Shown here piece by piece: positions 5,075 to 60,593 of a stretch of 64,000 nucleotides of DNA (the first letter of the stretch is position 1; each line of letters opens with the position of its first letter). The DNA comes from Alphaproteobacteria bacterium. Its GTDB lineage: Bacteria > Pseudomonadota > Alphaproteobacteria > UBA7985. The stretch covers positions 74,983 to 138,982 of the forward strand of contig CBDDHH010000004.1 in NCBI GenBank assembly GCA_965228345.1, read 5' to 3'. The notes under the pieces are model-generated. The model saw nothing but the letters and a program-made list of their open reading frames with translations, did no database searches and was not told where the DNA came from. The position numbers and the translations under genes are program-made.

Positions 5075-5095
5075 GCCCGAAAAAGGGTCGTCGCG

Positions 5096-5273: not shown

Positions 5274-5283
5274 TTGATATCCT

Positions 5284-17227: not shown

Positions 17228-17306
17228 CGTCGGAGGTCGTTTTCCATGGCCCTTGAGCTGTGCGCCCACTTGGTCGCTGGTCTTTGAAGAACCTGGTTTC
17301 TCAATT

Positions 17307-17560
17307 TATACCAACTCCGCTAAAAATTGACATTTTCAGCAGAGTTTTGTCTCACGGCAGAAACGCTTCGCGTTTGGGCTTTTGGGGTTGCGGTCTCACC
17401 TCGCTCGCACCGCTCGCTCGGCCCGACCGTGCAACAGGGCCTCCGCTTATACCCCGAGGCGCGTGTCCGCCGATCTCGGGGCCGCTTCGGGGACTGCGGT
17501 CGCGGCCCTTACACCAGCGAATATAAGAGCCACATAAGTGTCGCTGGTACAGCCAAGCCG
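17307..17560 (+). repeat. Modular hairpin repeat copy with optional GCGGTCTCACC..GGCCCGACCG module
   Basis: Left unit tataccaactccgctaaaaattgacattttcag, core tgtctcacggcagaaacgcttcgcgttt, ccccgaggcgc..atctcgggg, right unit acaccagcgaatataagagccacataagtgtcgctggtac. Confidence 0.85.
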
Positions 17561-17935: not shown

Positions 17936-18280
17936 CCGACTTATACCAACGGTCATAAAAAGTAACCTTTTTATGACCGTTTCGTGTCTCACGGCAGAAA
18001 CGCGTTGCGTTTCGGCTTTTTGGGGTAGCGGTCTCACCTTGCTCGCACCGCCCGACCGTGCGACGGGGCCTTCGCTTATACCCCGAGGCGCTTTCTTAGC
18101 TGATCTCGGGGCCGCGTGTTTTTGGTACGAGCGTTTCCTACGCCTTTCGGGCTTGGAGCCCAACTGTTTCGCGCGCGGGCGTTCCCTGCGCCCTTCGGGC
18201 TTGGAGCCCACTTGGGGGGGCCGCAGTCGCAGTCCCTATACAGCCGAATATAAGAGTCACTCATAATTGCCGCTGGTATT
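17928..18280 (+). repeat. Modular hairpin repeat copy (two tandem GGCTTGGAGCCC modules)
   Basis: Same module order as 28678-28965, with left unit tataccaacggtcataaaaagtaacctttttatgaccgtt and right unit ...cataattgccgctggtat. Confidence 0.85.
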
Positions 18281-18323
18281 AAAACCCGCTTTAGGGGAAT
18301 AAGAACGCAGGGGGAAGCCAAAA

Positions 18324-21557: not shown

Positions 21558-21733
21558 GATACCAGCGATCATAAGAGTCATTTATAATTGCCGCTGGTAT
21601 TTGCTGTTCTCGGGGCCGCTTGTTTTTGGCGCGGGCGTTCCCTGCGCCCTTCGGGCTTGGAGCCCGCCACGGGGGCCGCAGTCGCGGCCCTATACCAGTT
21701 CATAAGGAGTCTGTTTTTGGGAGAACTGGTATT
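21558..21733. repeat. Modular hairpin repeat copy lacking central core
   Basis: gataccagcgatcataagagtcatttataattgccgctggtat, then ggcgcgggcgttccctgcgcccttcgggcttggagccc, gggggccgcagtcgcggccc and tataccagttcataaggagtctgtttttgggagaactggtat. Confidence 0.85.
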
Positions 21734-23385: not shown

Positions 23386-23401
23386 GCGTACCAAGTGCTC
23401 T

Positions 23402-23448
23402 AATACCAACTCCGCTGAAAATGTCAATTTTTAGCGGAGTTGGTATTA
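23402..23448. repeat. Solo palindromic unit (TATACCAACTCCGCTGAAAATGTCAATTTTTAGCGGAGTTGGTATTA)
   Basis: Perfect palindrome between convergent channel and GST genes. Confidence 0.85.
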
Positions 23449-24053
23449 GAGCGAGGGATGGGCCGAGATTTGGGTGTAGAGGTTTTGTGTTTGAAACCGC
23501 TGGACCCAGGCTTGCACACCTGGGTAGGTCGTGAGATCAAGGCCTGCGTCGCCCGCTAGGGCCGTGTAGGGGTAGAGGCTGATATCGGCGATGGTGGGGC
23601 GGTCGGTTGCGAGCCAGGGGGTGTGGCCGAGTTGCATGTTGAGCAGGCGCAGAGCATCGTGGGACTTGTCGAGCAGGGCCTGAAAGTCCTGCGGGCGGCT
23701 TTGATCCCAACCGCGATAGAGTTTCCACGAGCGCGCTACGGCCAGCGCGGGTTCGTGGCTGTACTGTTCCCAGAACAACCAGGACAGCACGCGCGATTGC
23801 GCGCTGAGATCTTGGGGCCACCAATCGGTGCCTTGGGCCAAGCGCCAAAGGATCGCGTTGGATTCGATCAAAGTTTCGCCCGAAGTCAAGACCAGGCAAG
23901 GAATTTTGCCAGCGGGGTTGATCCGTTGGTACCAGGGTGCCCGCGTTTCGCCGCGGATCGTATCGATTGATTGATAGGCATAGTCGATCTCCAAGAACGA
24001 CAGCATCAATCGCACTTTCCAGCAGTTGCCCGAGGTGGCTTGTCCGTAGAGTT

Positions 24054-24057
<4 letters not shown>
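23446..24057 (-). CDS. Glutathione S-transferase
   Basis: MKLYGQATSGNCWKVRLML..IPCLVLTSGETLIESNAILWRL thioredoxin-like GST N-domain. Confidence 0.8.
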
Positions 24058-25925
<1,868 letters not shown>

Positions 25926-25944
25926 AGCGCTGGCCTGATTTGTC

Positions 25945-26108
25945 TAATACCAACGGTCATAAAAAGTGACTTTTTATGACCGTTTCGTGTCTCCCGGCAG
26001 AAACGCGTTGCGTTTCGCCTCCGACGGGGCCTTCGCTTATACCCCGAGGCGCTTTCGCGCCGATCTCGGGGCCGCTACGAGGGCCGCAATCGCGGCCCTT
26101 ATGCCAGC
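25945..26108 (+). repeat. Modular hairpin repeat copy (minimal form)
   Basis: taataccaacggtcataaaaagtgactttttatgaccgtt, tgtctcccggcagaaacgcgttgcgtttcgcc, ccccgaggcgc..atctcgggg, gagggccgcaatcgcggccc. Confidence 0.85.
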
Positions 26109-26174
26109 AGACATGGAAGGCATTTTTCATCGCTGCTAGCATCATGGCGTTTTGGTTGCTGCGCCTTTCGACCC

Positions 26175-27365
26175 TCAAGATTCGAGCAGCGGTTGGACGC
26201 CGGGAAGGGCGCGGCCCTCCATCCACTCCAGAAATGCGCCGCCCGCGGTGGAAAAATAGCTGAGATCGGCCAGCACACCTGCACCGTCGAGCGCGGCCAA
26301 GGTATCGCCGCCGCCAGCGATTGAGCGCAGCGCGCCGGATCGGGTTTGGGTGGCGACCTGTTGGGCCACGCCTTGCGTGGCGGCCGCAAAGGGGGGAAAT
26401 TCGAAGGCCCCGAGCGGCCCGTTCCAGATCAAGGTTTTGACTTTAGGCAGCAACTGGCAAATCATGGCCGCCGACTTCGGCCCGAAATCGAGGATCATCT
26501 GATCCTCTGGCAAGTCCGCCAAAGCGCTCGACTGCGCAGCTTCGCCGCGATTGGGGGCCGGGGCGTAACAAATATCGGTGGGCAAAATGACCTCGCACCC
26601 AAGGCCCGAAGCGCGGTCCAGCAACGCCAAAGCTTCGCGCGCCAAGGTCGGTTCGCACAACGACGCCCCAACCCCGTGCCCTTGGGCATGAAGGAAGGTA
26701 TTGGCCATGCCCCCACCAATGACGAGGATGTCAGCCTTGGTCACCAGATTGGTCAGCAGATCGAATTTGGTCGAGACCTTGGCGCCGCCAACGATAGCCA
26801 TCAAGGGACGGTCGGGCATGGCAAGGGCCATGTCGAGGGCGCGCAGTTCCTCGACCATCAAATCCCCCGCATAGGCGGGCAAGAGACTGGCGACGGCGGC
26901 GGTCGAGGCGTGCGCGCGGTGGGCCGCCGAAAAAGCGTCGTTGACGTAGAGATCCCCCAGGGCCGCCAGGTCCCGGGCGAAGGTGGTCTCATTGGCTTCC
27001 TCGGCCACCTCAAATCGCAAGTTTTCCAGCACCAGGATCTGGCCCGCCTCCAGGGCCCTTGCCGCCGCCAGGGCCGCCGTGCCCCGCACATCGGGGACGA
27101 ATTGAACCGGCATGTCCAAAACGGTGCTTAAGGCGCTGGCAACGGGCGCGAGGCTCAGCTCGGGAACGCATGTTCCTGCCGGTCGGCCAAAATGCGAGAT
27201 CAGAACGATCCGCGCACCGCGCGCAACTAGGCGTTTGAGCCCCGGGGCCAAGCGGTGCAAGCGCGCCCTACTGGTAACTTGGCCGTCGGCCAAGGGCACA
27301 TTCAAATCGGCCCGCACCAAGAGGGTGCGATCCCGGACTTCAACATCGGAAATGGAGCGAATCAT
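26175..27365 (-). CDS. pgk: Phosphoglycerate kinase
   Basis: 396-aa canonical PGK (..RADLNVP.., ..GGGASLEL..-like C-terminus FLEWMEGRALPG). Confidence 0.95.
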   Translation of the reverse strand: MIRSISDVEVRDRTLLVRADLNVPLADGQVTSRARLHRLAPGLKRLVARGARIVLISHFGRPAGTCVPELSLAPVASALSTVLDMPVQFVPDVRGTAALAAARALEAGQILVLENLRFEVAEEANETTFARDLAALGDLYVNDAFSAAHRAHASTAAVASLLPAYAGDLMVEELRALDMALAMPDRPLMAIVGGAKVSTKFDLLTNLVTKADILVIGGGMANTFLHAQGHGVGASLCEPTLAREALALLDRASGLGCEVILPTDICYAPAPNRGEAAQSSALADLPEDQMILDFGPKSAAMICQLLPKVKTLIWNGPLGAFEFPPFAAATQGVAQQVATQTRSGALRSIAGGGDTLAALDGAGVLADLSYFSTAGGAFLEWMEGRALPGVQPLLES

Positions 27366-27396
27366 GGAAACCTTGGGTTTATTTTGAGGAACTTCT

Positions 27397-27490
27397 TATA
27401 CCAATGCTCATAAAAAGTGACCTTTTTATGACCGTTTCGTATCTTATACCAACTCCGCTAAAAATTGACATTTTCAGCGGAGTTGGTATT
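27397..27490. repeat. Two adjacent palindromic units (type 2 + type 3)
   Basis: tataccaatgctcataaaaagtgacctttttatgaccgtttcgtatc followed by ttataccaactccgctaaaaattgacattttcagcggagttggtatt. Confidence 0.85.
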
Positions 27491-28271
27491 AAAGCGTTCG
27501 CCGCCGCCAACTGAGGCGCAGCAACTGCAGCGGCAGGGGGCGGACATAGGCCGGATGGCCAAGGGGCAGGCGCGCAAGGGCACGCAACCAGCGGCGCACC
27601 AGGTGCGCCGGGGCGCCGAGGGCGAACAGGGCCCCACTCGGCGGGATTTGGGATGCGAGCTCCCGCGCCCGATCGAGGTGCATCTGGGCTTGCGCCGCCA
27701 AGTCCATCACCGCAGCGGCGGGGTCGTCGTGCCAGGTCTTGAGCCCGCGCAGGGTCTGCGCTTGCCCCCCCCTTGCCAGGGTGCGGGCTAGGCCGACGAA
27801 CCCAAAGGCGCAGCCCAGGTGATTGGCGAAGCCTTCATGCCCCGTGAGGCCCAGAGCCCGGCCCTGGGCCACCAGCACGCTGCCGCTGGTCTGCGCCAGG
27901 TAGGCGCGCAGGTCTTCCAGCGTTGCGAACGGGCCCTCGATCAAGTCCGCCTCGCGGCCGTCGATCATGCGGTTCAAGGCCGGCAGGTCGAGCGCGTCGG
28001 CACTGGCCGCCAAGTCGGCCAAGGCCTTTACAACTTGATGACCCTGCGCTGGTTTGCCGCTCTCCAGCATCGCCACCACCTCGCGCCACCACTGCAAGCG
28101 GATGCGGCCGAGATCGGCGTTCGTAACGCGCTGGGTAGTGCGCGCCAGCTCGAGATTGAAGGCCGCCAAGGCCAGGAGATGGGGTTGCGCCGATGCAGGG
28201 GCGCAGAGGGCCAGGTGGAAGCGGTCGGGATCTTGAGCGCGTACCTGCGCCGTGCAGTAATCAAGATTCAT
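27489..28271 (-). CDS. Squalene/phytoene synthase family protein (short, NDUFAF6-like)
   Basis: 260-aa all-helical protein with isoprenoid-synthase-like D-rich segment (MIDGREADL) and overall similarity to the phytoene/squalene synthase fold. Confidence 0.5.
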   Translation of the reverse strand: MNLDYCTAQVRAQDPDRFHLALCAPASAQPHLLALAAFNLELARTTQRVTNADLGRIRLQWWREVVAMLESGKPAQGHQVVKALADLAASADALDLPALNRMIDGREADLIEGPFATLEDLRAYLAQTSGSVLVAQGRALGLTGHEGFANHLGCAFGFVGLARTLARGGQAQTLRGLKTWHDDPAAAVMDLAAQAQMHLDRARELASQIPPSGALFALGAPAHLVRRWLRALARLPLGHPAYVRPLPLQLLRLSWRRRTL

Positions 28272-28495: not shown

Positions 28496-28677
28496 GGCCC
28501 AAGCGCCAGCTAGAACAAGATCAAAATCGGCATTTCGCGGCATCATCATCATTTCCAGGTTGCCATGAACCTCTGCCCTAAAGCTATAGATGAAGACTTT
28601 TGGATGGCTTCCTCGCCCAGCAATGGCACAGAACATAGGGATTTTGACCCTGTTTAGGAGATCGTGTGTTACTGTCT

Positions 28678-28965
28678 AATACCAACGGCGAAAAAAGCTG
28701 ACACTTTTTTATGTCTCACGGCAGAAACGCTTCGCGTTTCGCCTGTTTGATGCGGTCTCTACTCGCTCGCTACGCTCGCTCAGCCCGACCGCGCGACAGG
28801 GCCTTCGCTGATACCCCGAGGCGCTTTCTTAGCTCATCTCGGGGCCGTTTGTTTTTGGCGCGGGCGTTCCCTGCGCCCTTTGGGCTTGGAGCCCGCTGCG
28901 GGGGCCGCAGTCGCGGCCCTTGATACCAGCGATCATAAGAGTCATTTATAATTGCCGCTGGTATA
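28678..28965 (+). repeat. Archetypal full-length modular hairpin repeat (all modules, single copy each)
   Basis: Order: unit1, core hairpin (gaaacgc-ttc-gcgtttc), GCGGTCTC..CCCGACCG module, CCCCGAG hairpin, 48-bp GGCGCGGGCGTTCCCTGCGCCC/GGCTTGGAGCCC module, GGCCGCAGTCGCGGCC hairpin, unit2. Confidence 0.9.
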
Positions 28966-29084
28966 ACAAACTCATCGTCTATTGTGCGAGATCTTTGGCT
29001 ATGTGTTGTCGCCGAGGGTTCTAAACTTGGCCCTACTTGGAATCCGCTATAGGCGATGCAAAGCCTGTGGCCTATAGACAGGTC

Positions 29085-31281: not shown

Positions 31282-31476
31282 CATACCAGTTCACCTCAAA
31301 ACAGACTCTTTATGAACTGGTATAGGGCCGCGACTGCGGCCCCCGTAGCGGCCCCGAGAACAGCGGACACCCGCCTTGGGGTATAAGCGAGGGCCCCGTC
31401 GGGGGCGAAACGCGAAGCGTTTCTGCCGTGAGACAAAACTCTGCTGATTATGTCAATGTTTAGCGGAGTTGGTATG
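31282..31476 (-). repeat. Modular hairpin repeat copy (reverse orientation)
   Basis: cataccagttcacctcaaaacagactctttatgaactggtat ... ggcgaaacgcgaagcgtttctgccgtgagaca ... tgtcaatgtttagcggagttggtat. Confidence 0.85.
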
Positions 31477-31478
31477 AG

Positions 31479-31859
31479 TCACAGATCGCGCAAGACTTGG
31501 CGCAAATGCTCGGCCTGATCGAAGCTGGTGTCGTAGACGAACGTCAGCTTCGGCGTGTACTTAGAACTGCTCTTTTTCGCCACCGCCGCGCTGAGGGTTG
31601 GCCGGGCGTTTTTGAGGGCAAACTCGCAATCGGCCTCGGGCACGGGCCCCAGGGGCACATAGAAAGCCTTGGCCGTGCGCAAATCGGCGCTGCAGCGCAC
31701 TTCGGTGAAGGTGAGGCTCAAGGGATGCCCGCGTTGATCGAGCAAATCTTCGCGCAGGCCTGCTTCGCACAAGGTATGGCGAATGTGCTCGCCTATCTTG
31801 AGTTGGCGTTGGCTTTGCCCGCGCCCATCGCGCGGTCTGGGTTGACGGCGGCTTTTCAT
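31479..31859 (-). CDS. rbfA: Ribosome-binding factor A-like protein
   Basis: ..RQLKIGEHIRHTLCEAGLREDLLD..LTFTEVRCSADLRTAKAFYVPLG.. fits the RbfA KH-like pattern. Start set at MKSRRQ. Not in a nusA-infB context, so only moderate confidence. Confidence 0.45.
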   Translation of the reverse strand: MKSRRQPRPRDGRGQSQRQLKIGEHIRHTLCEAGLREDLLDQRGHPLSLTFTEVRCSADLRTAKAFYVPLGPVPEADCEFALKNARPTLSAAVAKKSSSKYTPKLTFVYDTSFDQAEHLRQVLRDL

Positions 31860-31953
31860 GGGCGCGCCTGTGGCGTGCTTGCCGATGAAAAGCAAGAGTT
31901 TGCGCTTGTCCGCCTGCCGCCAAGGCCCTAGCGCGCCACTTATGAAATCTGGC

Positions 31954-33150
31954 ATGAGTGAACAGCGGACCCGAAGGGCGTTTCGGGCCATTGCGGGGTG
32001 TTTCTTCATGCTGGGCTGGCTGGTTCCCACGCTGTTCGCACAGTTTCCTACCGTACGCGAAAATTTGCAAATTGAAGAATGGCAAATCACGGTCTTCATC
32101 CTCACCATGGCGCTGGGGGCGATCCCATCCATGATCGCCAGTTCCTGGGCGATTGGGCGCTGGGGCAGCCAGCGACTTGCCCTGATCTTTCACCCGCTGA
32201 TTCTGATTTTTCCCGTCAGCTTCATCATGGCCCCAACTTATGAGGTGTTGTTGGGCGTCGGTTTTGCCATGGGTATTTGTACGGGTTTTTTTGACGTCGT
32301 GGCCAATACCCAGGGCAGCTTGCTGGAACGTGTCACCGACCGATTTTTTATGACCAGCATCCATGCGCTCTTCGCCTTGGGCGTCTTGGCCGGGTCCTTC
32401 TTAGCCTCCGTAGCCCACTTTGTTGGCCTGTCTTTGCCGCTATTTTTTGCGTGGCTTACTCTTGTGTCCAGCGCCCTGTTCCTGTTCATTTGGCGCGACT
32501 TCCTCCCTTTTGCGGTAGAACGCGACCAGGAACGCAGCGATGGGGCCGACCTTGGGACCGTTTCGCCCAGGATTTCCCGGTTCTTGCTCATCGCCCTGGC
32601 GGTTTTGATGGTGCTGGGAATCGAGGCCGAGGCCGCTCACTACGATTGGTTAGCGCTCTATTTTGCCGACGAGTTCGTATGGCGGGGGGAGGCCCTGCCC
32701 AAGCTGGGGTCAAATCTGGCCATGGTGTTCTTTTCCTCGGGGCTGCTGTTGGCGCGTCTGGTTGGGGACGGCGTCGCTGATCGAATCGGGCGCCCCAAAT
32801 TGCTCTTGTTCGGCACCTTGATCGGGCTGGCCGGCTTGGTCTGGCTGATCGCGACGCCTGCGTATGGGCAGGGGTTGCTGGCGGCCTTTTTGATCGGGTT
32901 TGGTTTTGCCTTTTTCTTTCCGATTTTTGTGGCGGCAGCGGGGCGTCTGCGCGGCATTCGCCCCGCCTTTGGCGTGGCCCTGGTCTCGGCCATGGGCTGG
33001 GCGTCGATCTTTATCGGGCCGCCGCTGATCGGATTTATCGAGCACCACTACGGGTTCCGCTGGGCCTACGCGTCCATCATCCCTGTGGCGGCGTTCGTCG
33101 CGATCTTGGGACCATGGGTCGTGTTCAAATCCCGTCCTGGCAATCACTAG
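31954..33150 (+). CDS. MFS-type transporter (12 TM)
   Basis: Two six-helix halves, GRxxxxG-like loop (GRWGSQRL), hydrophobic throughout. Confidence 0.65.
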   Translation: MSEQRTRRAFRAIAGCFFMLGWLVPTLFAQFPTVRENLQIEEWQITVFILTMALGAIPSMIASSWAIGRWGSQRLALIFHPLILIFPVSFIMAPTYEVLLGVGFAMGICTGFFDVVANTQGSLLERVTDRFFMTSIHALFALGVLAGSFLASVAHFVGLSLPLFFAWLTLVSSALFLFIWRDFLPFAVERDQERSDGADLGTVSPRISRFLLIALAVLMVLGIEAEAAHYDWLALYFADEFVWRGEALPKLGSNLAMVFFSSGLLLARLVGDGVADRIGRPKLLLFGTLIGLAGLVWLIATPAYGQGLLAAFLIGFGFAFFFPIFVAAAGRLRGIRPAFGVALVSAMGWASIFIGPPLIGFIEHHYGFRWAYASIIPVAAFVAILGPWVVFKSRPGNH

Positions 33151-38009: not shown

Positions 38010-38039
38010 GAGTCTGTCTTGGCTAGTAAGACCAGCGGC

Positions 38040-38078
38040 AAATATAAATGACTCTTATGACCGTTGGTATAAGTTCTA
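38040..38078. repeat. Partial solo unit (aaatgactcttatgaccgttggtataag)
   Basis: Right half of type-2b unit plus clamp. Confidence 0.5.
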
Positions 38079-38202
38079 TAGCGAAGGCCTGGCAGGGGTT
38101 TCAAAGAAAGGCATCTATCTTCACCCAGCTTGGCCGAAATGAGGCACGCATCAGGTCTTGAGATTTCAAAGATGCTCGCTTAGACTGCGGCGGTAAAGGC
38201 CC

Positions 38203-38607
38203 ATGACCCATCCCAATCCCAACCCTAAATGGCCCGGTGACTTGGCCGCGGATACCCAGCGCTTGGAACGCCTGAAAGCGCGTGTGGCCAGCGCGCGCGC
38301 TGCGGGCGGCGCTGCGCGGGTCCCCGAATTTGATCCCGCCAAACCCACAACAGGAATGGGACTGGGATTTAAGATGGGAATGGATCTTACCGTAGCGACA
38401 CTCGTTGGCTTCGGCCTCGGGGCCCTGGTCGATTGGCCCTTGGGCACCTTCCCCCTGCTGGCGCTGATTTTGTGCGCCCTAGGTTTTGCCGCCGGCATAC
38501 GGATGGTCTTAGCAGCGGCTCAGGACTATCGCACCCGCCTGGATGCGGGTATTGTTGCGCAACACTCGCGCAACCCCTCTATCGACCGTCGCGTGCGCCG
38601 ACGCTGA
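38203..38607 (+). CDS. atpI: ATP synthase protein I (AtpI/AtpZ-like), first gene of F0 operon
   Basis: Small 2-4 TM protein immediately upstream of atpB, the usual alphaproteobacterial arrangement. Confidence 0.55.
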   Translation: MTHPNPNPKWPGDLAADTQRLERLKARVASARAAGGAARVPEFDPAKPTTGMGLGFKMGMDLTVATLVGFGLGALVDWPLGTFPLLALILCALGFAAGIRMVLAAAQDYRTRLDAGIVAQHSRNPSIDRRVRRR

Positions 38608-38631
38608 CACAGATTTTACAAGGAACTGTCC

Positions 38632-39459
38632 ATGGCTGATTCAACCTTGATTCCAGGAACCCCTTGGTTGAAAGAACCAGGTCAAGCGATTGACCCCACC
38701 TCGCAATTTATTCCCAAGACGCTGTTAGGCTCAGAGATTTCTTGGCTTACGTTCACCAGCGCCAATTTAATGATGTTTTTTGGCGTCTTGGCCACCTTTG
38801 CATTGATTTATGTCGGCCTGGGTTCCAAAGCGGGTCGGGTGCCAGGGCGCATGCAAGTTGTCGCCGAAGCTGCCTATAGCTTTGTTAGGACGACCTTGCT
38901 CAGTGCCACAGGGGACGCGGGAAAACCTTATTTGCGGCTCATGATCACGCTGTTTTTCTTCATTGCCATGGGTAATTTTCTGGGCATGGTTACCTTGTCG
39001 ATTCCAGGCCTTGGGAATCCATTTTTTACCTACACTTCGCACTTCGCTATTACCGGGGCTTTAGGATTTGGCTTGATGATTTTTGTGACGGGCCTTGGGA
39101 TCCATAGGCATGGCTTGAAATTTTTCACCTTGTTTGTTCCCCAAGGCGTTCCCCTTCCGCTCTTGTTCGTTCTGGTGCCCATTGAGGTCATCTCCTACCT
39201 AACCCGCCCCGTCACCTTGGCAGTGCGGTTGTTTGCCAACATGGTGGCAGGTCACGCCCTGCTGAAAACCTTGGCGAGCTTTCCCTACTTCGTAGCCTCC
39301 GCCGCGACCTCTTTGACCTTAGGGGTTTTCATGACGGTCGCCATGCAACTCATTTTGATCCCCTTGACGGGCCTAGAATTCGTGATCGCGTTTTTGCAGG
39401 CCTATGTATTCGTCATGCTGGCCTCCATGTACTTTAAGGATGCGATACACCTGCACTGA
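38632..39459 (+). CDS. atpB: F0F1 ATP synthase subunit a
   Basis: ..LAVRLFANMVAGHALL.. conserved Arg-containing helix. 5-6 TM. Confidence 0.9.
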   Translation: MADSTLIPGTPWLKEPGQAIDPTSQFIPKTLLGSEISWLTFTSANLMMFFGVLATFALIYVGLGSKAGRVPGRMQVVAEAAYSFVRTTLLSATGDAGKPYLRLMITLFFFIAMGNFLGMVTLSIPGLGNPFFTYTSHFAITGALGFGLMIFVTGLGIHRHGLKFFTLFVPQGVPLPLLFVLVPIEVISYLTRPVTLAVRLFANMVAGHALLKTLASFPYFVASAATSLTLGVFMTVAMQLILIPLTGLEFVIAFLQAYVFVMLASMYFKDAIHLH

Positions 39460-39541
39460 GTTCGTTCGGGGTCAACTGTGGTCACGGTGCGCAAAACGAC
39501 TTCACAGATCACGGCTTGAATCTCTCCCCTGGCAGGCCTAA

Positions 39542-39811
<270 letters not shown>

Positions 39812-39897
39812 GCCTTTAGGGGTCATTGACGGGGTCGTTTGCCTCCGGGCTCTCCTCACTCCATGCCTCTTTGGTCCCAAACTAGGAACCCTGCCTG

Positions 39898-40425
39898 ATG
39901 ATCGGTGCTCCCCTTTTTGCTGCTAGTGAGGCCGCCAGCACGGCCTTTGGCCCCCTTGATTTCGCCATAGCGGGGTCGTTGCTGTTTTGGGCGCTGGTGT
40001 GCTTTTTGATCTACTACTTCGTGTTGGCGCCCATGTTGATGCAGCGGTCCGAAACCGTGATCGAAGATCGGGACAGGACGGTGAAGAACGACTTGGCCGC
40101 CGCTGAGCAAGCCAACGCAGACGCCGCAGCCCTGCTCGCCCAGTATGAAAGCAAGTTAGAAGACGCGCGGGCCGAGGCGAGCGCTGCTGTTCGAGAGGTT
40201 TTGGCCACAGCGAAGCTGAAGGCCGTGGCGGAAGAAAATCGCGTCTCGAAGAAAATTGCCCAAGGTGCGCAGGAGGCCGAACAACGCATCTCTGCAGCGC
40301 TTCAAGAAGCCGCGAAGGACCTGGCTGAAAGTGCTGCCGAGACCGCGCAGGCGGCTGTGGCCTGTTTAGCGGGCCTTAAGGTGACAAAGACGATGGCCAA
40401 AAATGCCCTTAAGGCGAGCCCCTAG
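39898..40425 (+). CDS. atpF2: F0F1 ATP synthase subunit b'
   Basis: Single N-terminal TM plus long A/E/K-rich helix. First of two b-type genes, as in alphaproteobacteria. Confidence 0.7.
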   Translation: MIGAPLFAASEAASTAFGPLDFAIAGSLLFWALVCFLIYYFVLAPMLMQRSETVIEDRDRTVKNDLAAAEQANADAAALLAQYESKLEDARAEASAAVREVLATAKLKAVAEENRVSKKIAQGAQEAEQRISAALQEAAKDLAESAAETAQAAVACLAGLKVTKTMAKNALKASP

Positions 40426-40964
40426 TGTTCGACTTACTTGTGTATTCTAAGGACGCGGGCCTGTTTGCCGCGGGTGGACCGTGGATTGTCGATTCCAACA
40501 CGGTGGTTATGATCGCGTTGATCGCCTTTCTATTGTTGGCCTATCGTTTCGGTTGGCCCTTGATTCGCGATATGCTTGATAGCCGTATTGATGAAATTCG
40601 ATCTGAGCTTGACGAGGCCAAGCGGCTGCGCACGCAGGCCGAAGACCTGTTGAAAGACTATAGGGCCAAGCACAACCACGCCTTGGCAGAAGCCAAGGCT
40701 ATTGTCGCGGCGGCTCAAAAGGACGCCCAAGCCTTGCAGGAAAAGGCCGCGGCGGACTTAGCGGTAGCGCTTCAACGTCGAGAAGACGCCGCCAAGGCGC
40801 GGATCAAGCAAGCGGAAGTCGCGGCTATCGCGCAAGCCCAAGCTACGGTCGCGGCCCAAGCCATAGCTTCCGCAGAAAAGATGTTAGCCGAAAAGCTGGA
40901 TGCAGACACCCACCTTAAACTGGTCGACGAAGCTATCGGCCTGGTTTCTGGGCGATTGCCTTGA
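40425..40964 (+). CDS. atpF: F0F1 ATP synthase subunit b
   Basis: Same architecture. Stop/start overlap with the b' gene. Confidence 0.7.
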   Translation: MFDLLVYSKDAGLFAAGGPWIVDSNTVVMIALIAFLLLAYRFGWPLIRDMLDSRIDEIRSELDEAKRLRTQAEDLLKDYRAKHNHALAEAKAIVAAAQKDAQALQEKAAADLAVALQRREDAAKARIKQAEVAAIAQAQATVAAQAIASAEKMLAEKLDADTHLKLVDEAIGLVSGRLP

Positions 40965-41042
40965 CGCGGCTGCCCTTGGTGCCCTTACCAAGAGCACCGC
41001 GAGAAATCCTCACAACGACTTTCGCCTTAGGCCGCCGGTGAT

Positions 41043-41090
41043 GGCTTATACCAGCGGCAATTATAAATGACTCTTATGACTGTTGGTATA
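41043..41090. repeat. Solo palindromic unit (TATACCAGCGGCAATTATAAATGACTCTTATGACTGTTGGTATA)
   Basis: Between convergent atpF and the dehydrogenase gene. Confidence 0.8.
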
Positions 41091-41118
41091 AGCGTCTCGT
41101 TTTTCGTGGCCGCCCATA

Positions 41119-42126
41119 TCACCCTTCCGCGCGTTCGGCCCGCTGCTTTAGTTGTGCCTCGAATTTATTGAGGGTCGTGCCCGCGCCCATATTGTGCTTA
41201 GCCAAAACGCGCTGCAGGGCGACGAGGCACTCGTCGCGCACCGCCTCCAGCTCGCGGATCGACTTGCCCTGCGCTTGGTCCTGGGTACCGCCCGCAAACC
41301 GGTCGATGATGTCCTCGGTAAGGGGCGGGGCTTGCAGGTGCGTCCAGGGCAAGTCCAGGGCGGGACCGAATTGCTTCAAAAAGTGGCGCGCGCCGCCTTC
41401 GCCGCCACCAAGCATGTAGATCTGGTTCATGCCCATGATTGCCCAACGCAGACCCGGGCCGTAGACAATCGACTCGTCCAACTCGCCCGTTGTGGCAATG
41501 TCGTCGTTCAGCGCGTGCAGAATTTCTCGCCACATAGCTTCCTGCAAGCGATCAGCAAGGTGGCCCGGCACCTCGCGCCTGACCAAGAGCGCGTGCATAC
41601 CGAGGGATTCATAGAAGGCCTTGGCCTGGTCCTTGGCGTGCGCGGCGGTTTCCGCGCCGCCGACGATCTCAACTAAGGGGCACAAATAGACGGGGTTGAA
41701 GGGGTGGCCGACCAAAATACGCTCGGGATGGGGCAGGCCCGCCTGCAACTCGGACGGCATGAAGCCCGACGTGGAGGAGGCGATCAAAACCGAGGCAGGA
41801 GTGCGTTGGCACACCTCCCCAAGCGCTCGGCGCTTTAAGTCGAGAACCTCAGGCACGTTTTCCTGAACGAAGTCGGCCTTGGCGGCCAGATCATCCAAGT
41901 CCGTCGTGAAGCAGAGCTGGCCCTTCGGCGGAACGGCCATACCTGAGGTAAGTTGCTCCAAGCCCTGGGTTGCGACCTCCAGGGTGCGATGCAAGACCGC
42001 TTCCATCTTGGCGTCGATATCGTAGGCAACAACGTCGTACCCACCGTGCAAGGCGCGCGCGGCCCAACCGCCGCCGATCACGCCTGTTCCCAATAAACCT
42101 AGGGTGCGAATGTCATCCATATACAT
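41119..42126 (-). CDS. lcdH: L-carnitine dehydrogenase-like 3-hydroxyacyl-CoA dehydrogenase family protein
   Basis: GLLGTGVIGGGWAAR Rossmann motif. SSTSG..PSE, HPFNPVYLCPLVEIVGG and GPALDLPWTHLQAPPLT match carnitine dehydrogenase signatures. Confidence 0.7.
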   Translation of the reverse strand: MYMDDIRTLGLLGTGVIGGGWAARALHGGYDVVAYDIDAKMEAVLHRTLEVATQGLEQLTSGMAVPPKGQLCFTTDLDDLAAKADFVQENVPEVLDLKRRALGEVCQRTPASVLIASSTSGFMPSELQAGLPHPERILVGHPFNPVYLCPLVEIVGGAETAAHAKDQAKAFYESLGMHALLVRREVPGHLADRLQEAMWREILHALNDDIATTGELDESIVYGPGLRWAIMGMNQIYMLGGGEGGARHFLKQFGPALDLPWTHLQAPPLTEDIIDRFAGGTQDQAQGKSIRELEAVRDECLVALQRVLAKHNMGAGTTLNKFEAQLKQRAERAEG

Positions 42127-42154
42127 GTCCCAACTTGGTGCGCTTGCGCCGAGG

Positions 42155-42340
42155 CTAACCCGAAGTGAGGTGCACGGCAACATCATTTAGAGTGATGGCG
42201 CAGTCACAAAGAGACGACCGCCAGTCGTCCTTGGCGGTTTGGTCCGCTGCGTTGCTCAAGTACTTGACCGCCGCGAAGGGCACCTCGAAGACACGGCAAA
42301 CCTTGGCGAGGGCAAAGGCCTCCATCTCCACGACGCAAGG
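42155..42340 (-). pseudogene. mtnN: C-terminal remnant (~57 codons) of MTA/SAH nucleosidase (mtnN/pfs) truncated by a repeat copy
   Basis: VVEMEAFALAKVCRVFEVPFAAVKYLSNAADQTAKDDWRSSLCDCAITLNDVAVHLTSG aligns with the MtnN C-terminus (AVEMEA.A.A.VC..F.VPF..V..IS..ADQ....L..HG). Upstream codons are repeat-derived. Confidence 0.6.
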
Positions 42341-42347
42341 ACTAGGT

Positions 42348-42586
42348 GATACCAGCGGCAATGATAAATGACTCTTATGATCGCTGGTATAAGGGCCGCG
42401 ACTGCGGCCCCCGTAGCGGGCTCCAAGCCTAAAGGGCGCAGGGAACGCCCGCGCCAAAAACAAGCGGCCCCGAGAACAGCTAAGAAAGCGCCTCGGGGTA
42501 TCAGCGAAGGGGAGGCGAAACGCGGAGCGTTTCTTCCGTGAGACAAAACTCCGCTGAAAATGTCAATTTTTAACGGAGTTGGTGTA
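42348..42586 (-). repeat. Modular hairpin repeat copy (reverse orientation)
   Basis: gataccagcggcaatgataaatgactcttatgatcgctggtat ... gggcgcagggaacgcccgcgcc ... ggcgaaacgcggagcgtttcttccgtgagaca ... aaaatgtcaatttttaacggagttggtgta. Confidence 0.85.
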
Positions 42587-42961
42587 AAGCAAGCCGCGCT
42601 CTTCTAAGACCTTGCGCGCATGGCGAAAGCACTCCAGCGCCTGGGGGACGCCGCAATAAATCCCGATCACATGGCACGAGGCGCGAATTTCCTCCTTGGT
42701 CACGCCGTTGTTGACCGCGCCGCGCAGATGGATTTCGAATTCATGCATCTTGCCCAAAGCCCCGATCATGGAAAGGTTCATAAGGCTCCGTGTTTTAGCG
42801 TCGAGCGTATCGTCGCCCCAACCAAAACCCCAGCACCAGGCGGTCATGGCTTCCTGAAACGGACGGGTGAAGTCATCGGCGGAGGCGAGGTTGGCCTCGA
42901 CATAGTCGGCGCCCAGCGTGGCTTTGCGTCGTTCGAGGCCGAGATCAAATTTGTTGTCCAT
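42563..42961 (-). CDS. Carboxymuconolactone decarboxylase (AhpD-like) family protein
   Basis: ..CHVIGIYCGVPQALECF.. AhpD-like CxxxH-type helical motif. Start set at MDNKFDLGLERRK. The 3' end is overlapped by the repeat copy. Confidence 0.65.
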   Translation of the reverse strand: MDNKFDLGLERRKATLGADYVEANLASADDFTRPFQEAMTAWCWGFGWGDDTLDAKTRSLMNLSMIGALGKMHEFEIHLRGAVNNGVTKEEIRASCHVIGIYCGVPQALECFRHARKVLEERGLLYTNSVKN

Positions 42962-43083
42962 GACGTGTCTCCATAAATCGGGTGCGAGAGGGATCGGCAC
43001 GCCGCTAAAGAGCCAGCAATCAAAGCGCAATGCGGAATCGAAGCGGGATTGATCACCGGGAAATCTCGACGCGCCAGCAGGGG

Positions 43084-43370
43084 TTATACCAGCGGCAATG
43101 ATAAATGACTCTTATGATCGCGGGTATAAGGGCCGCGACCGCGGCCCCCGTAGCGGGCTCCAAGTCCAAAGGGCGCAGGGAACGCCCGCGCCAAAAACAA
43201 ACGACCCCGAGATCGGCGGACACGCGCCTCGGGGTATAAGCGAAGGCGCGGTCGGGCTGAGCGAGCGTAGCGAGCGAGGTGAGACCGCATCAAACAGGCG
43301 AAACGCGAAGCGTTTTCGCCGCGAGACAAAACTCTGCTGAAAATGTCAATTTTTAGCGGAGTTGGTATAA
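43084..43370 (-). repeat. Modular hairpin repeat copy (reverse orientation, with GCGGTCTCACC module)
   Basis: About 90% identical to 42348-42586 plus the extra module. Ends 10 bp before the paiB-like ATG. Confidence 0.85.
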
Positions 43371-43379
43371 GGCGGGTCC

Positions 43380-44009
43380 ATGCATCCCAATTCGGTCTAT
43401 CGTCAGTTAAGCGAAACCGACACCCTAGCGTTGGCGGGTCAGCGGGGGTTTGGTGTGGTTACGGCCCAGTTGGACATTCTGTTTGGTGCCCATGTTCCCT
43501 TTATTTTGGACGGCGGGGATCGGCTGCTGCTGCATTTACATCGAGGCAATGCCTTGGCCAAGGCGGCGCGGGCAGAACCGCTTGAGGTTATGGTAATTGT
43601 CTCGCTAGGCGACGCTTATGTGTCGCCCGAGTGGTACGGTCTTGGCCCCGACCAAGTGCCGACATGGCTTTACGGGGCGGTGCACTTGCACGGCCTGATG
43701 CAGGCCTTGCCCGATGAGGAGTTGGAGCCTTTGCTGGAGCAGATGACCGAGGAATTCGAGGGGCGGCTGGCGCCAAAAAACCCGTGGACGCTCGATAAGA
43801 TGGGCGAGGCGCCCAAGGCCGCCCTCATGCGCGCCATTCAGCCGTTTGAAATTGTGCTAGACGGAGTTGAGGCCACGGACAAGTTTGCCCAAAACAAACC
43901 CCCGGCAGCCCTCGACGCCTTGGCCGAGCAATTGCCGCAAACTTTTGGGGCTAGGGTCGATCAGGTCACCGAGCGGGTCCAGCGCGCGGCCCGCGACAAG
44001 AGGCGATGA
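43380..44009 (+). CDS. PaiB-family FMN-binding protein / putative transcriptional regulator
   Basis: 209 aa. N-terminal MHPNSVYRQLSE.. and split-barrel pattern resemble PaiB. Confidence 0.6.
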   Translation: MHPNSVYRQLSETDTLALAGQRGFGVVTAQLDILFGAHVPFILDGGDRLLLHLHRGNALAKAARAEPLEVMVIVSLGDAYVSPEWYGLGPDQVPTWLYGAVHLHGLMQALPDEELEPLLEQMTEEFEGRLAPKNPWTLDKMGEAPKAALMRAIQPFEIVLDGVEATDKFAQNKPPAALDALAEQLPQTFGARVDQVTERVQRAARDKRR

Positions 44010-48874: not shown

Positions 48875-49150
48875 TACCAGCGGAAACAAGACTGACCTGC
48901 TGATCCACTTCTCATACCAGTTCACCTTAAAACAGACTCTTTATGAACTGGTATAGGGCCGCGACTGCGGCCCCCGCAGCGGGCTCCAAGCCCAAAGGGC
49001 GCAGAGAACGCCCGCGCCAAAAACAAACGGCCCCGAGACAAGCTAAGAAAGCGCCTCGGGGTATAAGCGAAGGGGAGGCGAAACGCGAAGCGTTTCTGCC
49101 GTGAGACAAAACTCCGATAAAAATGTCAATTTTTATCGGAATTGGGTTCA
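48873..49150 (-). repeat. Modular hairpin repeat copy (reverse orientation), begins inside the stop codon of the upstream gene
   Basis: gTGAtaccagcgg ... cataccagttcaccttaaaacagactctttatgaactggtat ... ggcgaaacgcgaagcgtttctgccgtgagaca ... aaaatgtcaatttttatcgg. Confidence 0.85.
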
Positions 49151-50652: not shown

Positions 50653-50687
50653 TCCTGAACGATCTTCCCAAGTCGGCAAGTTATATC

Positions 50688-51172
50688 GGCGGCAATTGTG
50701 AGTGAGTCTTAATGGTCGCTGGTATAAGGGCCGCGACTGCGGCGGCCCCAAGCGGGCTCCAAGCTCGAAGGGCGTAGGGAACGCCCGCGCACGAAAGGGT
50801 TGGGCTCCAAGCTCGAAGGGCGCAGGGAACGCCCGCGCACGAAAGGGTTGGGCTCCAAGCTCGAAGGGCGCAGGGAACGCCCGCGCACGAAAGGGTTGGG
50901 CTCCAAGCTCGAAGGGCGCAGGGAACGCCCGCGCACGAAAGGGTTGGGCTCCAAGCTCGAAGGGCGCAGGGAACGCCCGCGCCAAAAACAAGTGGCCCCG
51001 AGAATAGCTAAGAAGGCGCCTCGGGGTATAAGCGAAGGCCCCGTCGCACGGTCGGGCTGAGCGAGCGGTGCGAGCGAGGTGAGACCGCCGCTCAAAAAAG
51101 CCGAAACGCGGAGCGTTTCTGCCGTGAGACCAAACTCCGCTGAAAATGTCAATGTTTAGCGGAGTTGGTACT
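50688..51172 (-). repeat. Largest modular hairpin repeat copy with 5 tandem 48-bp modules (50754..50985)
   Basis: Five head-to-tail gggctccaagctcgaagggcgcagggaacgcccgcgcacgaaagggtt units embedded between standard end/core modules. Confidence 0.9.
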
Positions 51173-54343: not shown

Positions 54344-54632
54344 TATAGCGAGTGCGATTTAATTTGATTAAGGCGCAATCACTATATCCTTTATTGGCGC
54401 TCAGCTTATCGTCTCAAAATGTGATCGTTTTAATACCAGCGGCGAATTAAAATGACTCTTTTATTCGCTGGTATAAGGGCCGCGACCGCGGCCCCCGTAG
54501 CGGCCCCGAGAATAGCGCGAAAGCGCCTCGGGGTATAAGCGAAGGCCCCGTCGGAGGCGAAACGCGAAGCGTTTCTGCCGTGAGACATAAAACGGCTGAA
54601 AAAGTGTCAACTTTTTTCGCCGTTGGTATAAG
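54344..54632 (-). repeat. Modular hairpin repeat copy (reverse) preceded by accessory module E1 (54344..54425), starts 1 bp after the pyrC stop
   Basis: tatagcgagtgcgatttaatttgattaaggcgcaatcactata..., then aataccagcggcgaattaaaatgactcttttattcgctggtat ... ggcgaaacgcgaagcgtttctgccgtgagaca ... ggctgaaaaagtgtcaacttttttcgccgttggtat. Confidence 0.85.
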
Positions 54633-60251: not shown

Positions 60252-60401
60252 AAATAAAAGAGGAAACTTATGGAGGGCACGTCAGGACCAGCGCACTAAG
60301 GAGGCTATTCCTACTCGAAAGCGCTCCGAGGCTTGTGCAGACGTCAAACCTTCATTCTCCTTAACGGACAAAACATGAAGACGAAATTCTAAGGGATAAG
60401 T

Positions 60402-60593
60402 CATACCAGCGGAGATTTAAAATGACTCTTTTATTCGCTGGTATAAGGGCCGCGACTGCGGCCCCCGTAGCGGCCCCGAGATGAGCTAAGAAAGCGCCTC
60501 GGGGTATAAGCGAAGGGGAGGCGAAACGCGAAGCGTTTCTGCCGTGAGACATAAAACGGCTGAAAAAGTGTCAACTTTTTTCGCCGTTGGTAT
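60402..60593 (-). repeat. Modular hairpin repeat copy (reverse orientation, minimal form)
   Basis: cataccagcggagatttaaaatgactcttttattcgctggtat ... ggcgaaacgcgaagcgtttctgccgtgagaca ... ggctgaaaaagtgtcaacttttttcgccgttggtat. Confidence 0.85.

What the first reader, a model, noticed from the sequence alone, without database searches (positions are those of the whole stretch)
42155..42590. Repeat element has truncated an mtnN (MTA/SAH nucleosidase) gene, leaving only the last ~57 codons
Minus-strand translation of 42165-42335 gives VVEMEAFALAKVCRVFEVPFAAVKYLSNAADQTAKDDWRSSLCDCAITLNDVAVHLTSG. This aligns residue-for-residue with the conserved C-terminus of MtnN/Pfs, but everything upstream is the repeat copy at 42348-42586. 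The repeat family is therefore not neutral filler: it has inserted into, or recombined out, coding sequence. The organism either has another mtnN copy or lacks this methionine-salvage/AI-2 step.
Basis: partly seen in the sequence, partly recalled or inferred. Interest (0 to 1): 0.6.

Follow-up and report, generated by a model that had tools for sequence, protein, structure and literature searches.

The report
Repeat-truncated nucleosidase gene remnant
A small structured repeat element sits where the first two thirds of a 185-codon nucleosidase gene used to be, leaving a dead 63-codon tail; this is an ordinary gene-loss event, in a genome unusually crowded with such repeats.

Summary
Minus-strand 42346-42158 (stop codon 42157-42155) encodes the last 63 codons of a PNP_UDP_1-family nucleosidase. 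A complete 238-bp copy of a modular hairpin repeat (42347-42584) lies directly upstream of it. Four orthologous loci carry an intact ~185-codon gene at this position: three ~85%-identical relatives (L081-L083) and a more distant one (L087), all ordered CMD-nucleosidase-3HCDH. In the window, the first 366 bp (codons 1-122) are missing and the repeat is there instead. The left break falls inside the CMD stop codon, so CMD now reads 7 extra codons into the repeat. The remnant is unique to this genome, has Asn at the catalytic Asp position and no credible start. It is a recent pseudogene (dN/dS 0.11-0.13, no frameshift). The "mtnN" label is only partly right. The intact orthologue is a short MtnN-like protein that fails every curated MtnN cut-off and sits in a CMD/dehydrogenase/racemase cluster, so the methionine-salvage and AI-2 inference is unsupported. 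Repeats mark every deletion or rearrangement junction I examined around this block. How the element arrived (insertion plus deletion, or recombination between copies) is unresolved. This is a known kind of event, and interest is low to moderate.

The parts
42155..42346 (-). Pseudogene remnant: codons 123-185 plus the stop codon of a 185-codon PNP_UDP_1 (MtnN-like) nucleosidase gene. The catalytic-Asp position (E. coli Asp197 equivalent) is Asn here.
   Evidence: ORF and translation. Pfam and NCBIfam hits. blastn window 41128-42346 = L081 10993-9773 at 84.6%. Alignment. 53/63 aa identical to the orthologue, dN/dS 0.11-0.13.
42347..42584 (.). Complete 238-bp copy of the modular hairpin repeat element, occupying the place of the missing 366 bp (codons 1-122). 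A terminal hairpin ATACCAGCGG...CGCTGGTAT abuts the remnant. The other terminal hairpin abuts the CMD gene.
   Evidence: Gap in homology to L081-83 between 9407 and 9772. Alignment with 11 other copies shows both termini present. Folds as a chain of six stem-loops, z=-3.7 (RNA) and -4.7 (DNA). No Rfam family.
42563..42961 (-). CMD-family (carboxymuconolactone-decarboxylase-like) gene. Its original TAG stop was destroyed at the junction (TA retained at 42586-42585). The ORF runs 7 extra codons (YTNSVKN) into the repeat, to a TGA at 42565-42563.
   Evidence: 118/125 aa identical to the L082 orthologue, dN/dS 0.07.
41119..42120 (-). Intact 3-hydroxyacyl-CoA/L-carnitine-dehydrogenase-like gene (333 aa) directly downstream of the remnant (34-nt spacer). 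This is the same neighbour as in relatives.
   Evidence: 304/333 aa identical, dN/dS 0.06.
41043..41099 (.). Solo terminal-hairpin module, 19 nt beyond the 3HCDH stop codon. It is orthologous to the first hairpin of a full element downstream of atpF' in relative L085. It marks the junction where the MR_MLE gene of relatives is missing and the ATP-synthase operon begins.
43082..43372 (.). Second full element, in direct orientation, 737 bp from the first. It starts exactly where homology to relatives upstream of CMD ends (43085).

Best explanation
The ancestor carried a cluster CMD - 185-codon MtnN-like nucleosidase - 3HCDH - MR_MLE, with the CMD stop codon overlapping the nucleosidase start codon. 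In the lineage of this window, a copy of a modular hairpin repeat became associated with the nucleosidase gene, and 366 bp were lost. The repeat is non-coding, about 240 bp, MITE/BOX/REP-like, and has about 20 copies per 64 kb here. The lost stretch runs from the last base of the CMD stop codon through codon 122. What remains is one complete element flanked by CMD on one side and the last 63 codons on the other.

The remnant is a non-functional pseudogene:
- It lacks two thirds of the fold.
- It has no credible translation start.
- It has Asn in place of the catalytic Asp.

Its low dN/dS and the absence of frameshifts indicate that the loss is recent relative to the split from the nearest relatives (dS about 0.7).

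The same element family marks the other two edges of this small syntenic block and the edges of two other operon-sized blocks. So the truncation is one instance of repeat-associated deletion and rearrangement that is reshaping this genome.

Shown: the deletion, its exact boundaries, the ancestral state, and the presence of the element. Inferred: that the element caused the deletion. The route could be insertion followed by adjacent deletion, or recombination between two copies, rather than the element arriving afterwards.
For: - Intact 185-codon gene between the same neighbours in L081, L082 and L083 and in the more distant L087. CMD-nucleosidase adjacency is also seen in L084 and on the 1.8-kb contig that holds both P0004 and P0032.
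- blastn shows two homology blocks, 41128-42346 and 42585-43085. They are separated by 238 bp of repeat in the window and by 366 bp of coding sequence in relatives.
- The element is a full canonical copy.
- No other nucleosidase fragment is present in the window.
- The remnant product is a single-member cluster.
- dN/dS is 0.11-0.13 for the remnant, 0.06 for 3HCDH and 0.07 for CMD.
- Asp to Asn at the position aligned to E. coli Asp197.
- Elements lie at the other breakpoints.
- Modules are shuffled between copies.
- Near-identical relatives differ by element-associated replacement of intergenic DNA.
Against: - No intermediate state (an element inserted into an otherwise complete gene) was found, so the order of events is unknown.
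- No transposase or RAYT-type gene was seen among 30 window ORFs, and no target-site duplication could be defined. Transposition is therefore unproven.
- Only the 64-kb window could be searched. The missing 5' part could lie elsewhere in the genome, which would mean rearrangement rather than deletion.
- The contig is a metagenome assembly, and a 240-bp repeat is a plausible place for a mis-join. However, the CMD stop codon and codon 122 both abut repeat termini, so the gene is broken under any assembly.
Confidence: 0.85

Rival explanations
1. The deletion arose by homologous recombination between two directly oriented element copies. One had inserted at the CMD/nucleosidase boundary and one at codon 122. 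Recombination left one hybrid element and removed everything between them.
For: - Elements are modular mosaics. This copy shares its first hairpin type with 43082, 28964 and 21600, but its body is closest to 48908 (93%) and 28802-28921 (96%). That points to frequent exchange between copies.
- A second copy in direct orientation lies 737 bp away.
- A rearrangement junction lies inside an ancestral element at 41043-41099.
- MITEs are documented hotspots of homologous recombination (PMC10969869).
Against: It needs two independent insertions within 366 bp, one of them exactly at overlapping stop/start codons. No relative carries either insertion. A complete, canonical element is equally expected from a single insertion.
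Confidence: 0.3
2. The element, or its terminal hairpin, was captured at a site in the gene that resembles its own terminal arm. This could be pseudo-end recognition or microhomology-primed repair copying an element. The 5' gene segment was lost in the same event.
For: - In intact orthologues the 42 nt before the break begin with TACACCAGCGATCA. The window has, in the same register (45 nt, still in frame), the hairpin beginning TATACCAGCGATCA, a 13/14 match.
- An in-register match this good occurred at 22 of 25,974 control positions. Most of those were genuine element copies, so p is below about 8e-4, assessed post hoc.
Against: - The match was noticed after the fact. A search anywhere in the gene gives only p of about 0.03.
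- The observed junction is not at the microhomology, because the full hairpin follows it.
- Three other filled/empty or breakpoint comparisons show no such resemblance.
Confidence: 0.15
3. Assembly artefact: the metagenomic assembler joined two different loci through a collapsed repeat, and the real genome has an intact gene.
For: The source is an uncultured-organism assembly. The repeats are 200-300 bp and numerous.
Against: Both flanks are the ancestral neighbours in the ancestral order and orientation, which a random mis-join would not give. The repeat termini abut the TA of the CMD stop codon and codon 122, so an intact gene cannot be reconstructed from these flanks. The remnant also carries a catalytic-site substitution.
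Confidence: 0.04
4. The 56-63-residue tail is a genuine, still-functional small gene.
For: A gene caller called a 56-aa product (P0001). The frame is open, and dN/dS against orthologues is low.
Against: - It is a one-member cluster with no standalone homologues among 5.8 billion proteins.
- All relatives encode the full 185-aa protein.
- It covers only profile positions 171-207 of 233 of the fold.
- The GGAG directly abuts the ATG, with no spacer (sequence).
- The low dN/dS is explained by constraint before a recent truncation.
Confidence: 0.03

Closest known systems
MtnN/Pfs 5'-methylthioadenosine/S-adenosylhomocysteine nucleosidase (PNP_UDP_1 superfamily)
   Same: The remnant and its intact orthologues share the C-terminal VEMEA and SDxADQ motifs. 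All 26 solved-structure hits are MTA/SAH nucleosidases (best 4qez E=7e-13; E. coli 1jys E=3e-12). One orthologue is named MTA/SAH nucleosidase by NCBI (P0032).
   Different: - The intact orthologue is 185 aa, not about 230. It lacks about 26 N-proximal residues in the alignment to solved MTANs.
- It is below every curated MtnN cut-off, and below the cut-off of NF004168 'nucleosidase', its best match.
- Its genomic context is a CMD/dehydrogenase/MR_MLE cluster.
- The substrate is unknown.
BOX elements of Streptococcus pneumoniae (boxA-boxB(n)-boxC)
   Same: Both are composite non-coding repeats with two terminal modules and an internal module present in 0 to several tandem copies. Both are predicted to fold into independent stem-loops, are mostly intergenic, and occasionally disrupt genes (PMC3049150). 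Here the terminal hairpins flank an optional 48-nt unit that forms arrays at 50754-50993 and 5092-5273.
   Different: There is no sequence relationship. The host is an alphaproteobacterium, the element has more modules (six hairpins), and both terminal modules are palindromes sharing ATACCA...TGGTAT.
MITEs, REP/BIME and REPIN elements, Correia elements, Rickettsia palindromic elements
   Same: All are short, non-autonomous, hairpin-forming, high-copy repeats that sit at gene ends, act as recombination hotspots and sometimes enter coding sequence (PMC10969869; PMC3049150; otherwise my own knowledge). Terminal inverted repeats are present here (ATACCAGC / GCTGGTAT).
   Different: No target-site duplication could be defined, and no partner transposase or RAYT was identified in the window. 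Unlike Rickettsia elements, the host gene was not kept in frame and functional; two thirds of it are gone.
IS-mediated adjacent deletion and pseudogene formation in repeat-rich genomes
   Same: A mobile repeat lies directly next to a deletion that ends at the boundary of a retained gene. Several neighbouring genes of the ancestral cluster are lost (nucleosidase truncated, MR_MLE absent).
   Different: The element has no transposase, and the mechanism is not demonstrated.

Membership tests
PNP_UDP_1 phosphorylase/nucleosidase superfamily (Pfam PF01048) | Significant match to the Pfam profile above its gathering score | tested here: met
   Remnant: 31.5 bits against 25.1, E=1.5e-7, profile positions 171-207 of 233. 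The intact orthologues carry a precomputed PF01048 hit.
MtnN (MTA/SAH nucleosidase) equivalog | Full-length score above the curated cut-off of TIGR01704 / NF004079 / TIGR01705 | tested here: not met
   Intact orthologue from L082: 54.0 against 73.8 (TIGR01704), 73.6 against 169 (NF004079), 62.9 against 152.2 (TIGR01705). The remnant itself cannot reach a whole-protein cut-off.
MtnN (MTA/SAH nucleosidase) equivalog | Catalytic residues Glu174 and Asp197 (E. coli numbering; roles from my own knowledge of the family) | tested here: inconclusive
   Orthologues keep VEMEA and SDAADQ. The window remnant keeps VEMEA but has SNAADQ, i.e. Asp to Asn. The Glu12 equivalent cannot be placed with confidence in the shortened N-terminus.
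MtnN (MTA/SAH nucleosidase) equivalog | About 230-residue single-domain architecture | tested here: not met
   Orthologues are 183-188 aa. The alignment to solved MTANs starts at chain residue 35.
Short 'nucleosidase' family NF004168 (PRK05634, 185-position model) | Score above the curated cut-off (129 bits) | tested here: not met
   It is the best-matching model and matches in length (positions 21-182 of 185), but scores only 83.1 bits.
Pseudogene (truncated remnant of a functional gene) | Intact full-length orthologue at the syntenic position in relatives, with only part of it present here | tested here: met
   185 codons in four relatives, and only codons 123-185 here.
Pseudogene (truncated remnant of a functional gene) | Relaxed selection or disabling changes within the remnant | tested here: inconclusive
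   dN/dS is 0.11-0.13 against 0.06-0.07 for the neighbours, not significantly different (p=0.2). There is no frameshift or internal stop in 63 codons. There is one catalytic-site substitution. This is consistent with a recent truncation.
MITE (miniature inverted-repeat transposable element) | Terminal inverted repeats | tested here: met
   ATACCAGCGG at one end and CCGTTGGTAT / GGAGTTGGTAT at the other in 12 aligned copies.
MITE (miniature inverted-repeat transposable element) | Target-site duplication flanking the insertions | tested here: inconclusive
   The flanking bases are palindromic (T-N-ATACC...GGTAT-N-A) rather than direct repeats. Filled/empty comparisons show replacement of 14-177 nt rather than clean insertion.
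MITE (miniature inverted-repeat transposable element) | Related autonomous element whose transposase shares the termini | not tested
   No transposase was found among 30 window ORFs. Relatives carry IS630-, IS110- and IS4/5-type transposase genes, but their ends were not compared with the element.
REP/REPIN | Associated RAYT (Y1 transposase) gene in the genome | not testable with these tools
   The whole genome is not available. None was seen in the window.

The most novel reading that the evidence does not exclude
The hairpin element family may be an active, self-recombining agent that cuts this uncultured alphaproteobacterial genome into operon-sized blocks. On this reading it deletes or relocates DNA precisely at gene boundaries and even supplies new stop codons. 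It would be drawn to coding sites that mimic its own terminal arm, as the in-register 13/14 match at the nucleosidase break hints. That would be a mobilisation or recombination mechanism not described for MITE/REP-type repeats.
Probability: 0.15. Interest if true: 0.6.

Novelty: new member of a known kind. Interest (0 to 1): 0.3.

Why it matters
The result is a clean, base-resolved example of a small non-coding repeat associated with loss of coding sequence. It comes with the ancestral state from related genomes. It shows that the repeat family in this genome is not inert spacer: it marks every deletion and rearrangement junction examined. For annotation, the 56-aa called 'protein' should be flagged as a pseudogene fragment. 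The missing activity should not be read as loss of methionine salvage or AI-2 signalling. The wider question is more interesting than the pseudogene itself: how a six-hairpin modular element spreads and reshuffles a genome without a visible transposase.

Tried and rejected
- Word-indexed protein search with the 59-aa fragment found only itself.
- Exact look-ups of window proteins (P0001, CMD, AtpE) found no contig on record. The source genome is not in the indexed assemblies. Relatives were reached instead through 90%-cluster members of the neighbouring 3HCDH.
- The genome-contig scan with 3HCDH returned only relatives at 70% identity or less, none with a nucleosidase next to it.
- A metagenome scan with a degenerate pattern for VVEMEAFALAKVCR found nothing. 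The follow-up scan with 3HCDH gave one useful locus, L087.
- Rfam at gathering and at E<=1 gave no family for the element.
- The promoter/terminator consensus scan of 40900-43500 gave nothing above the shuffled expectation. Polarity on 3HCDH could therefore not be judged.
- I looked for the missing 5' gene part, for MR_MLE and for the relatives' other flanking genes elsewhere in the window. None was found.
- I looked for a transposase or RAYT among 30 ORFs. None was found.
- I tried to define a target-site duplication from 12 copies and 3 filled/empty pairs. It could not be defined.
- Window-versus-relative intergenic comparisons are not evidence of 'replacement'. At dS of about 0.7, non-coding DNA no longer aligns.
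- The weak second tblastn hit of E. coli MtnN at 50742-50620 (E=0.71) lies inside a repeat array and was dismissed as chance.

Full report
**1. What is in the sequence**

It lies inside the minus-strand ORF 42155..42463. The stated coordinates 42165-42335 are out of frame and translate to something else. The correct span is 42334-42158, with the stop codon at 42157-42155.

Several results place the peptide in the nucleosidase family:
- The 59-residue peptide matches Pfam PF01048 (PNP_UDP_1) above the gathering score: 31.5 against 25.1 bits, E=1.5e-7. It covers only profile positions 171-207 of 233, the C-terminal part of the fold.
- NCBIfam places it nearest a 185-position 'nucleosidase' model (NF004168, positions 130-181, E=9e-10). 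MTA/SAH nucleosidase models come next, at E=9e-9 to 4e-7.

Directly upstream in the gene's sense lies a repeat, at 42347-42584. The same 36-mer from its end occurs four times in the window against zero in shuffles. The family has about 20 copies or fragments, 3.9 kb or 6% of the window.

**2. The ancestral state**

The source genome is not in the indexed collections. However, the neighbouring dehydrogenase has 90%-cluster mates on other contigs. Three such loci (L081, L082, L083) share one gene order:
- CMD-family gene, 125 aa
- PNP_UDP_1 gene, 185 aa
- 3-hydroxyacyl-CoA/L-carnitine-dehydrogenase-like gene, 333 aa
- MR_MLE gene

The CMD stop codon and the PNP start codon overlap by one base. 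A more distant metagenomic locus, L087, has the same CMD-PNP-3HCDH order with a full-length PNP gene; its 3HCDH is 76% identical to the window's and its PNP 67% identical to the L082 orthologue. L084 and a 1.8-kb contig also keep CMD next to PNP.

blastn of the window against L081 gives two blocks: 41128-42346 = L081 10993-9773 (84.6%) and 42585-43085 = L081 9406-8905 (86%). Between these blocks the relatives have 366 bp, codons 1-122 of the PNP gene. The window has 238 bp of repeat in that place. The alignment shows both junctions to the base. So 63 codons survive, not about 57. No other piece of the gene is in the window.

**3. The junctions**

On the CMD side, relatives read ...GGC GTG CTT TAG|TGG. 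The window reads ...GGC TTG CTT TA|C ACC AAC TCC GTT AAA AAT TGA. The break is therefore inside the CMD stop codon. CMD now runs seven codons (YTNSVKN) into the element's terminal hairpin, which supplies a new stop codon.

On the remnant side, the element ends ...GCCGCTGGTATCA and gene sequence resumes at CCT AGT CCT TGC GTC GTG GAG (PSPCVVE).

One detail is unexplained. In intact orthologues the 42 nt before the break begin TACACCAGCGATCA. This encodes YTSD(Q), the family's 'SGDAF'-type motif. The window has, 45 nt before the break and in the same frame, the hairpin beginning TATACCAGCGATCA, a 13/14 match. Searched anywhere in the gene this is weak evidence (55 of 2000 shuffles). An in-register match this good occurred at only 22 of 25,974 control positions, and most of those were real element copies. 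The test is post hoc, the junction is not at the microhomology, and other sites show nothing similar. I record it as a possible hint of target choice, not as a finding.

**4. Is the remnant dead?**

These points say it is:
- It lacks two thirds of the protein.
- The called 56-aa product is a single-member cluster among 5.8 billion proteins.
- The only SD-like GGAG abuts the ATG with no spacer.
- The residue aligned to E. coli Asp197 is Asp in all relatives (SDAADQ) but Asn here (SNAADQ). Asp197 is the general acid of MtnN, from my own knowledge of the family.

Against L082 the remnant has dN/dS 0.11, and 0.13 against L081 (dS 0.67, 53/63 residues identical). 3HCDH has 0.06 and CMD 0.07, and the difference is not significant (p=0.2). 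There are no frameshifts or stops. The simplest reading is that the gene was under constraint for most of the divergence and was truncated recently.

**5. Is it mtnN?**

Only loosely. The intact orthologue gives 83.1 bits on NF004168 (cut-off 129), 73.6 on NF004079 (cut-off 169), 54.0 on TIGR01704 (cut-off 73.8) and 62.9 on TIGR01705 (cut-off 152.2). All 26 solved-structure hits are MTA/SAH nucleosidases (best E=7e-13), but the alignment begins at chain residue 35 and the protein is about 45 residues shorter.

It belongs to a populous clade of 180-200-aa proteins that pipelines call 'nucleosidase', '5'-nucleosidase' or 'adenosylhomocysteine nucleosidase'. Its conserved partners are not methionine-salvage genes. 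They are:
- a CMD-family protein (117 bits against a PcaC cut-off of 155.7)
- a carnitine-dehydrogenase-like protein, below its cut-offs
- an MR_MLE enzyme

The statement about methionine salvage and AI-2 is therefore unsupported. Whether the genome has a canonical mtnN elsewhere could not be tested.

**6. The repeat and the mechanism**

Twelve aligned copies show a fixed order of modules:
- a terminal palindrome ATACCAGCGG...CGCTGGTAT
- GGCCGCGACTGCGGCC
- an optional 48-nt unit, which forms tandem arrays at 50754-50993 and 5092-5273
- a CCCCGAG...CTCGGGG hairpin
- an optional GC-rich unit
- GAAACGCGAAGCGTTTC
- a second terminal palindrome ending GTTGGTAT

Different copies carry different but internally complementary stems in the terminal hairpins. 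An example is CAGCGGCAAT...GATCGCTG against CAGTTCACC...TGAACTG. This shows that the hairpin form is maintained.

The copy at 42347-42584 is complete. It folds into six independent stem-loops, with z=-3.7 as RNA and -4.7 as DNA. It matches no Rfam family. Among 168 fetched loci the family occurs only in the window and its ~85%-identical relatives. No transposase or RAYT was seen among 30 window ORFs. Relatives do carry IS630-, IS110- and IS4/5-type transposase genes.

Near-identical relatives differ by elements that replace 14 nt (L081/L082 against L083) or 177 nt (L082 against L081/L083) of intergenic DNA, rather than inserting cleanly.

Around the finding, every edge of conserved synteny carries an element:
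- Homology upstream of CMD stops at 43085, where a full element starts.
- Just beyond the 3HCDH stop codon the MR_MLE gene of relatives is absent. A solo hairpin (41043-41099) follows. It is orthologous to the first hairpin of a full element downstream of atpF' in L085, so that junction lies inside an ancestral element.
- The GST-ABC-PGK block (23446-27365) is likewise bounded by hairpin modules.

The causal link between the element and the deletion is thus strongly suggested but inferred. I cannot separate insertion plus adjacent deletion from recombination between two copies or from a microhomology or pseudo-end event.

**7. Comparison with known systems**

The gene is an MtnN-like member of PNP_UDP_1 that fails the MtnN membership tests.

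The element works like known small bacterial repeats. Its terminal modules plus a variable tandem internal module closely parallel pneumococcal BOX elements. BOX elements are also predicted to fold into independent stem-loops and also disrupt genes (PMC3049150). It also resembles MITE, REP/BIME and Correia elements, which are documented recombination hotspots (PMC10969869). There is no sequence relationship to any of them, and MITE membership is incomplete. Terminal inverted repeats are present, target-site duplication is undefined, and a partner transposase was not tested.

**8. Verdict**

It is imprecise on the gene's identity and speculative on physiology. The event is an ordinary kind of gene decay in a repeat-rich genome of a deep-branching uncultured alphaproteobacterium. 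PGK is 90% identical to the relatives, then 71%, and only 54-58% to cultured taxa. Interest is 0.3. The element family itself and its role at every breakpoint are the more interesting lead.

Noticed in passing
window 1670-1848, 3398-3644, 5092-5274, 17306-17549, 17940-18281, 21559-21711, 23400-23449, 25944-26144, 27443-27484, 28676-28967, 31304-31478, 38027-38073, 41046-41092, 42345-42587, 43082-43372, 48927-49145, 50680-51170, 54431-54632, 60400-60593: One modular hairpin repeat family makes up about 6% of the window (about 20 copies or fragments). It separates nearly every gene or operon. Modules are shuffled between copies, and the terminal hairpins show compensatory stem variants. There is no Rfam match. 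Among the fetched loci it occurs only in the closest relatives.
   Followed up: partly
window 50754-50993 and 5092-5273: The 48-nt internal module of the element (GGGCTCCAAGC..GGGCGCAGGGAACGCCCGCGC..) is amplified into tandem arrays of about 5 and about 4 units. This recalls boxB arrays in BOX elements and the minisatellite inside a Porphyromonas MITE (PMC4596501). The 5092-5273 array lies inside the over-long ORF 3677-5452, upstream of its MatE domain.
   Followed up: no
window 38137-40962; 41128-43085; 23446-27365: Synteny with the ~85%-identical relatives is only operon-sized: the atp F0 operon = L085, 3HCDH-remnant-CMD = L081, and GST-ABC-PGK = L167. The blocks lie in different genomic neighbourhoods in the relatives. 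Every block edge examined carries an element or a solo hairpin.
   Followed up: partly
window 41043-41118: The MR_MLE gene that follows 3HCDH by 5 nt in L081-83 is absent from the window. The break is just beyond the 3HCDH stop codon. The ancestral four-gene cluster has therefore lost two members here.
   Followed up: partly
window 42563-42586: The CMD gene lost its TAG stop at the repeat junction. It gained a 7-residue C-terminal extension (YTNSVKN) and a new TGA stop, both encoded by the element's terminal hairpin.
   Followed up: yes
L081 4075-4235 vs L083 4218-4280; L082 5367-5600 vs L081/L083: Near-identical relatives differ by the presence or absence of elements. In both cases the element replaces resident intergenic DNA (14 nt and 177 nt, the latter including terminator-like hairpins) instead of inserting cleanly with a duplication.
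   Followed up: partly
L167 3120-6916, 13859-14994; L168 4948-6916, 13859-16426: The relatives' contigs carry IS4/5-type (DDE_Tnp_1), IS110-type and IS630-type (DDE_3) transposase genes next to the PGK block. The window shows none among 30 ORFs scanned. Whether any of these shares termini with the hairpin element was not checked.
   Followed up: no
window 31858-33150 and 27489-28271: These may be further partial genes. ORF 31858-33150 matches only MFS_1 profile positions 34-178 of 347 and overlaps rbfA on the other strand. ORF 27489-28271 matches SQS_PSY positions 1-162 of 263 and is bordered by hairpin modules at 27395-27496.
   Followed up: no
L084 10264-10810: In a more distant relative (CMD 79% nt identity) the nucleosidase gene is split into 85-aa and 109-aa calls and is followed directly by MR_MLE with no 3HCDH. 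Many genes on that pilon-polished contig are split, so sequencing error is likely.
   Followed up: no
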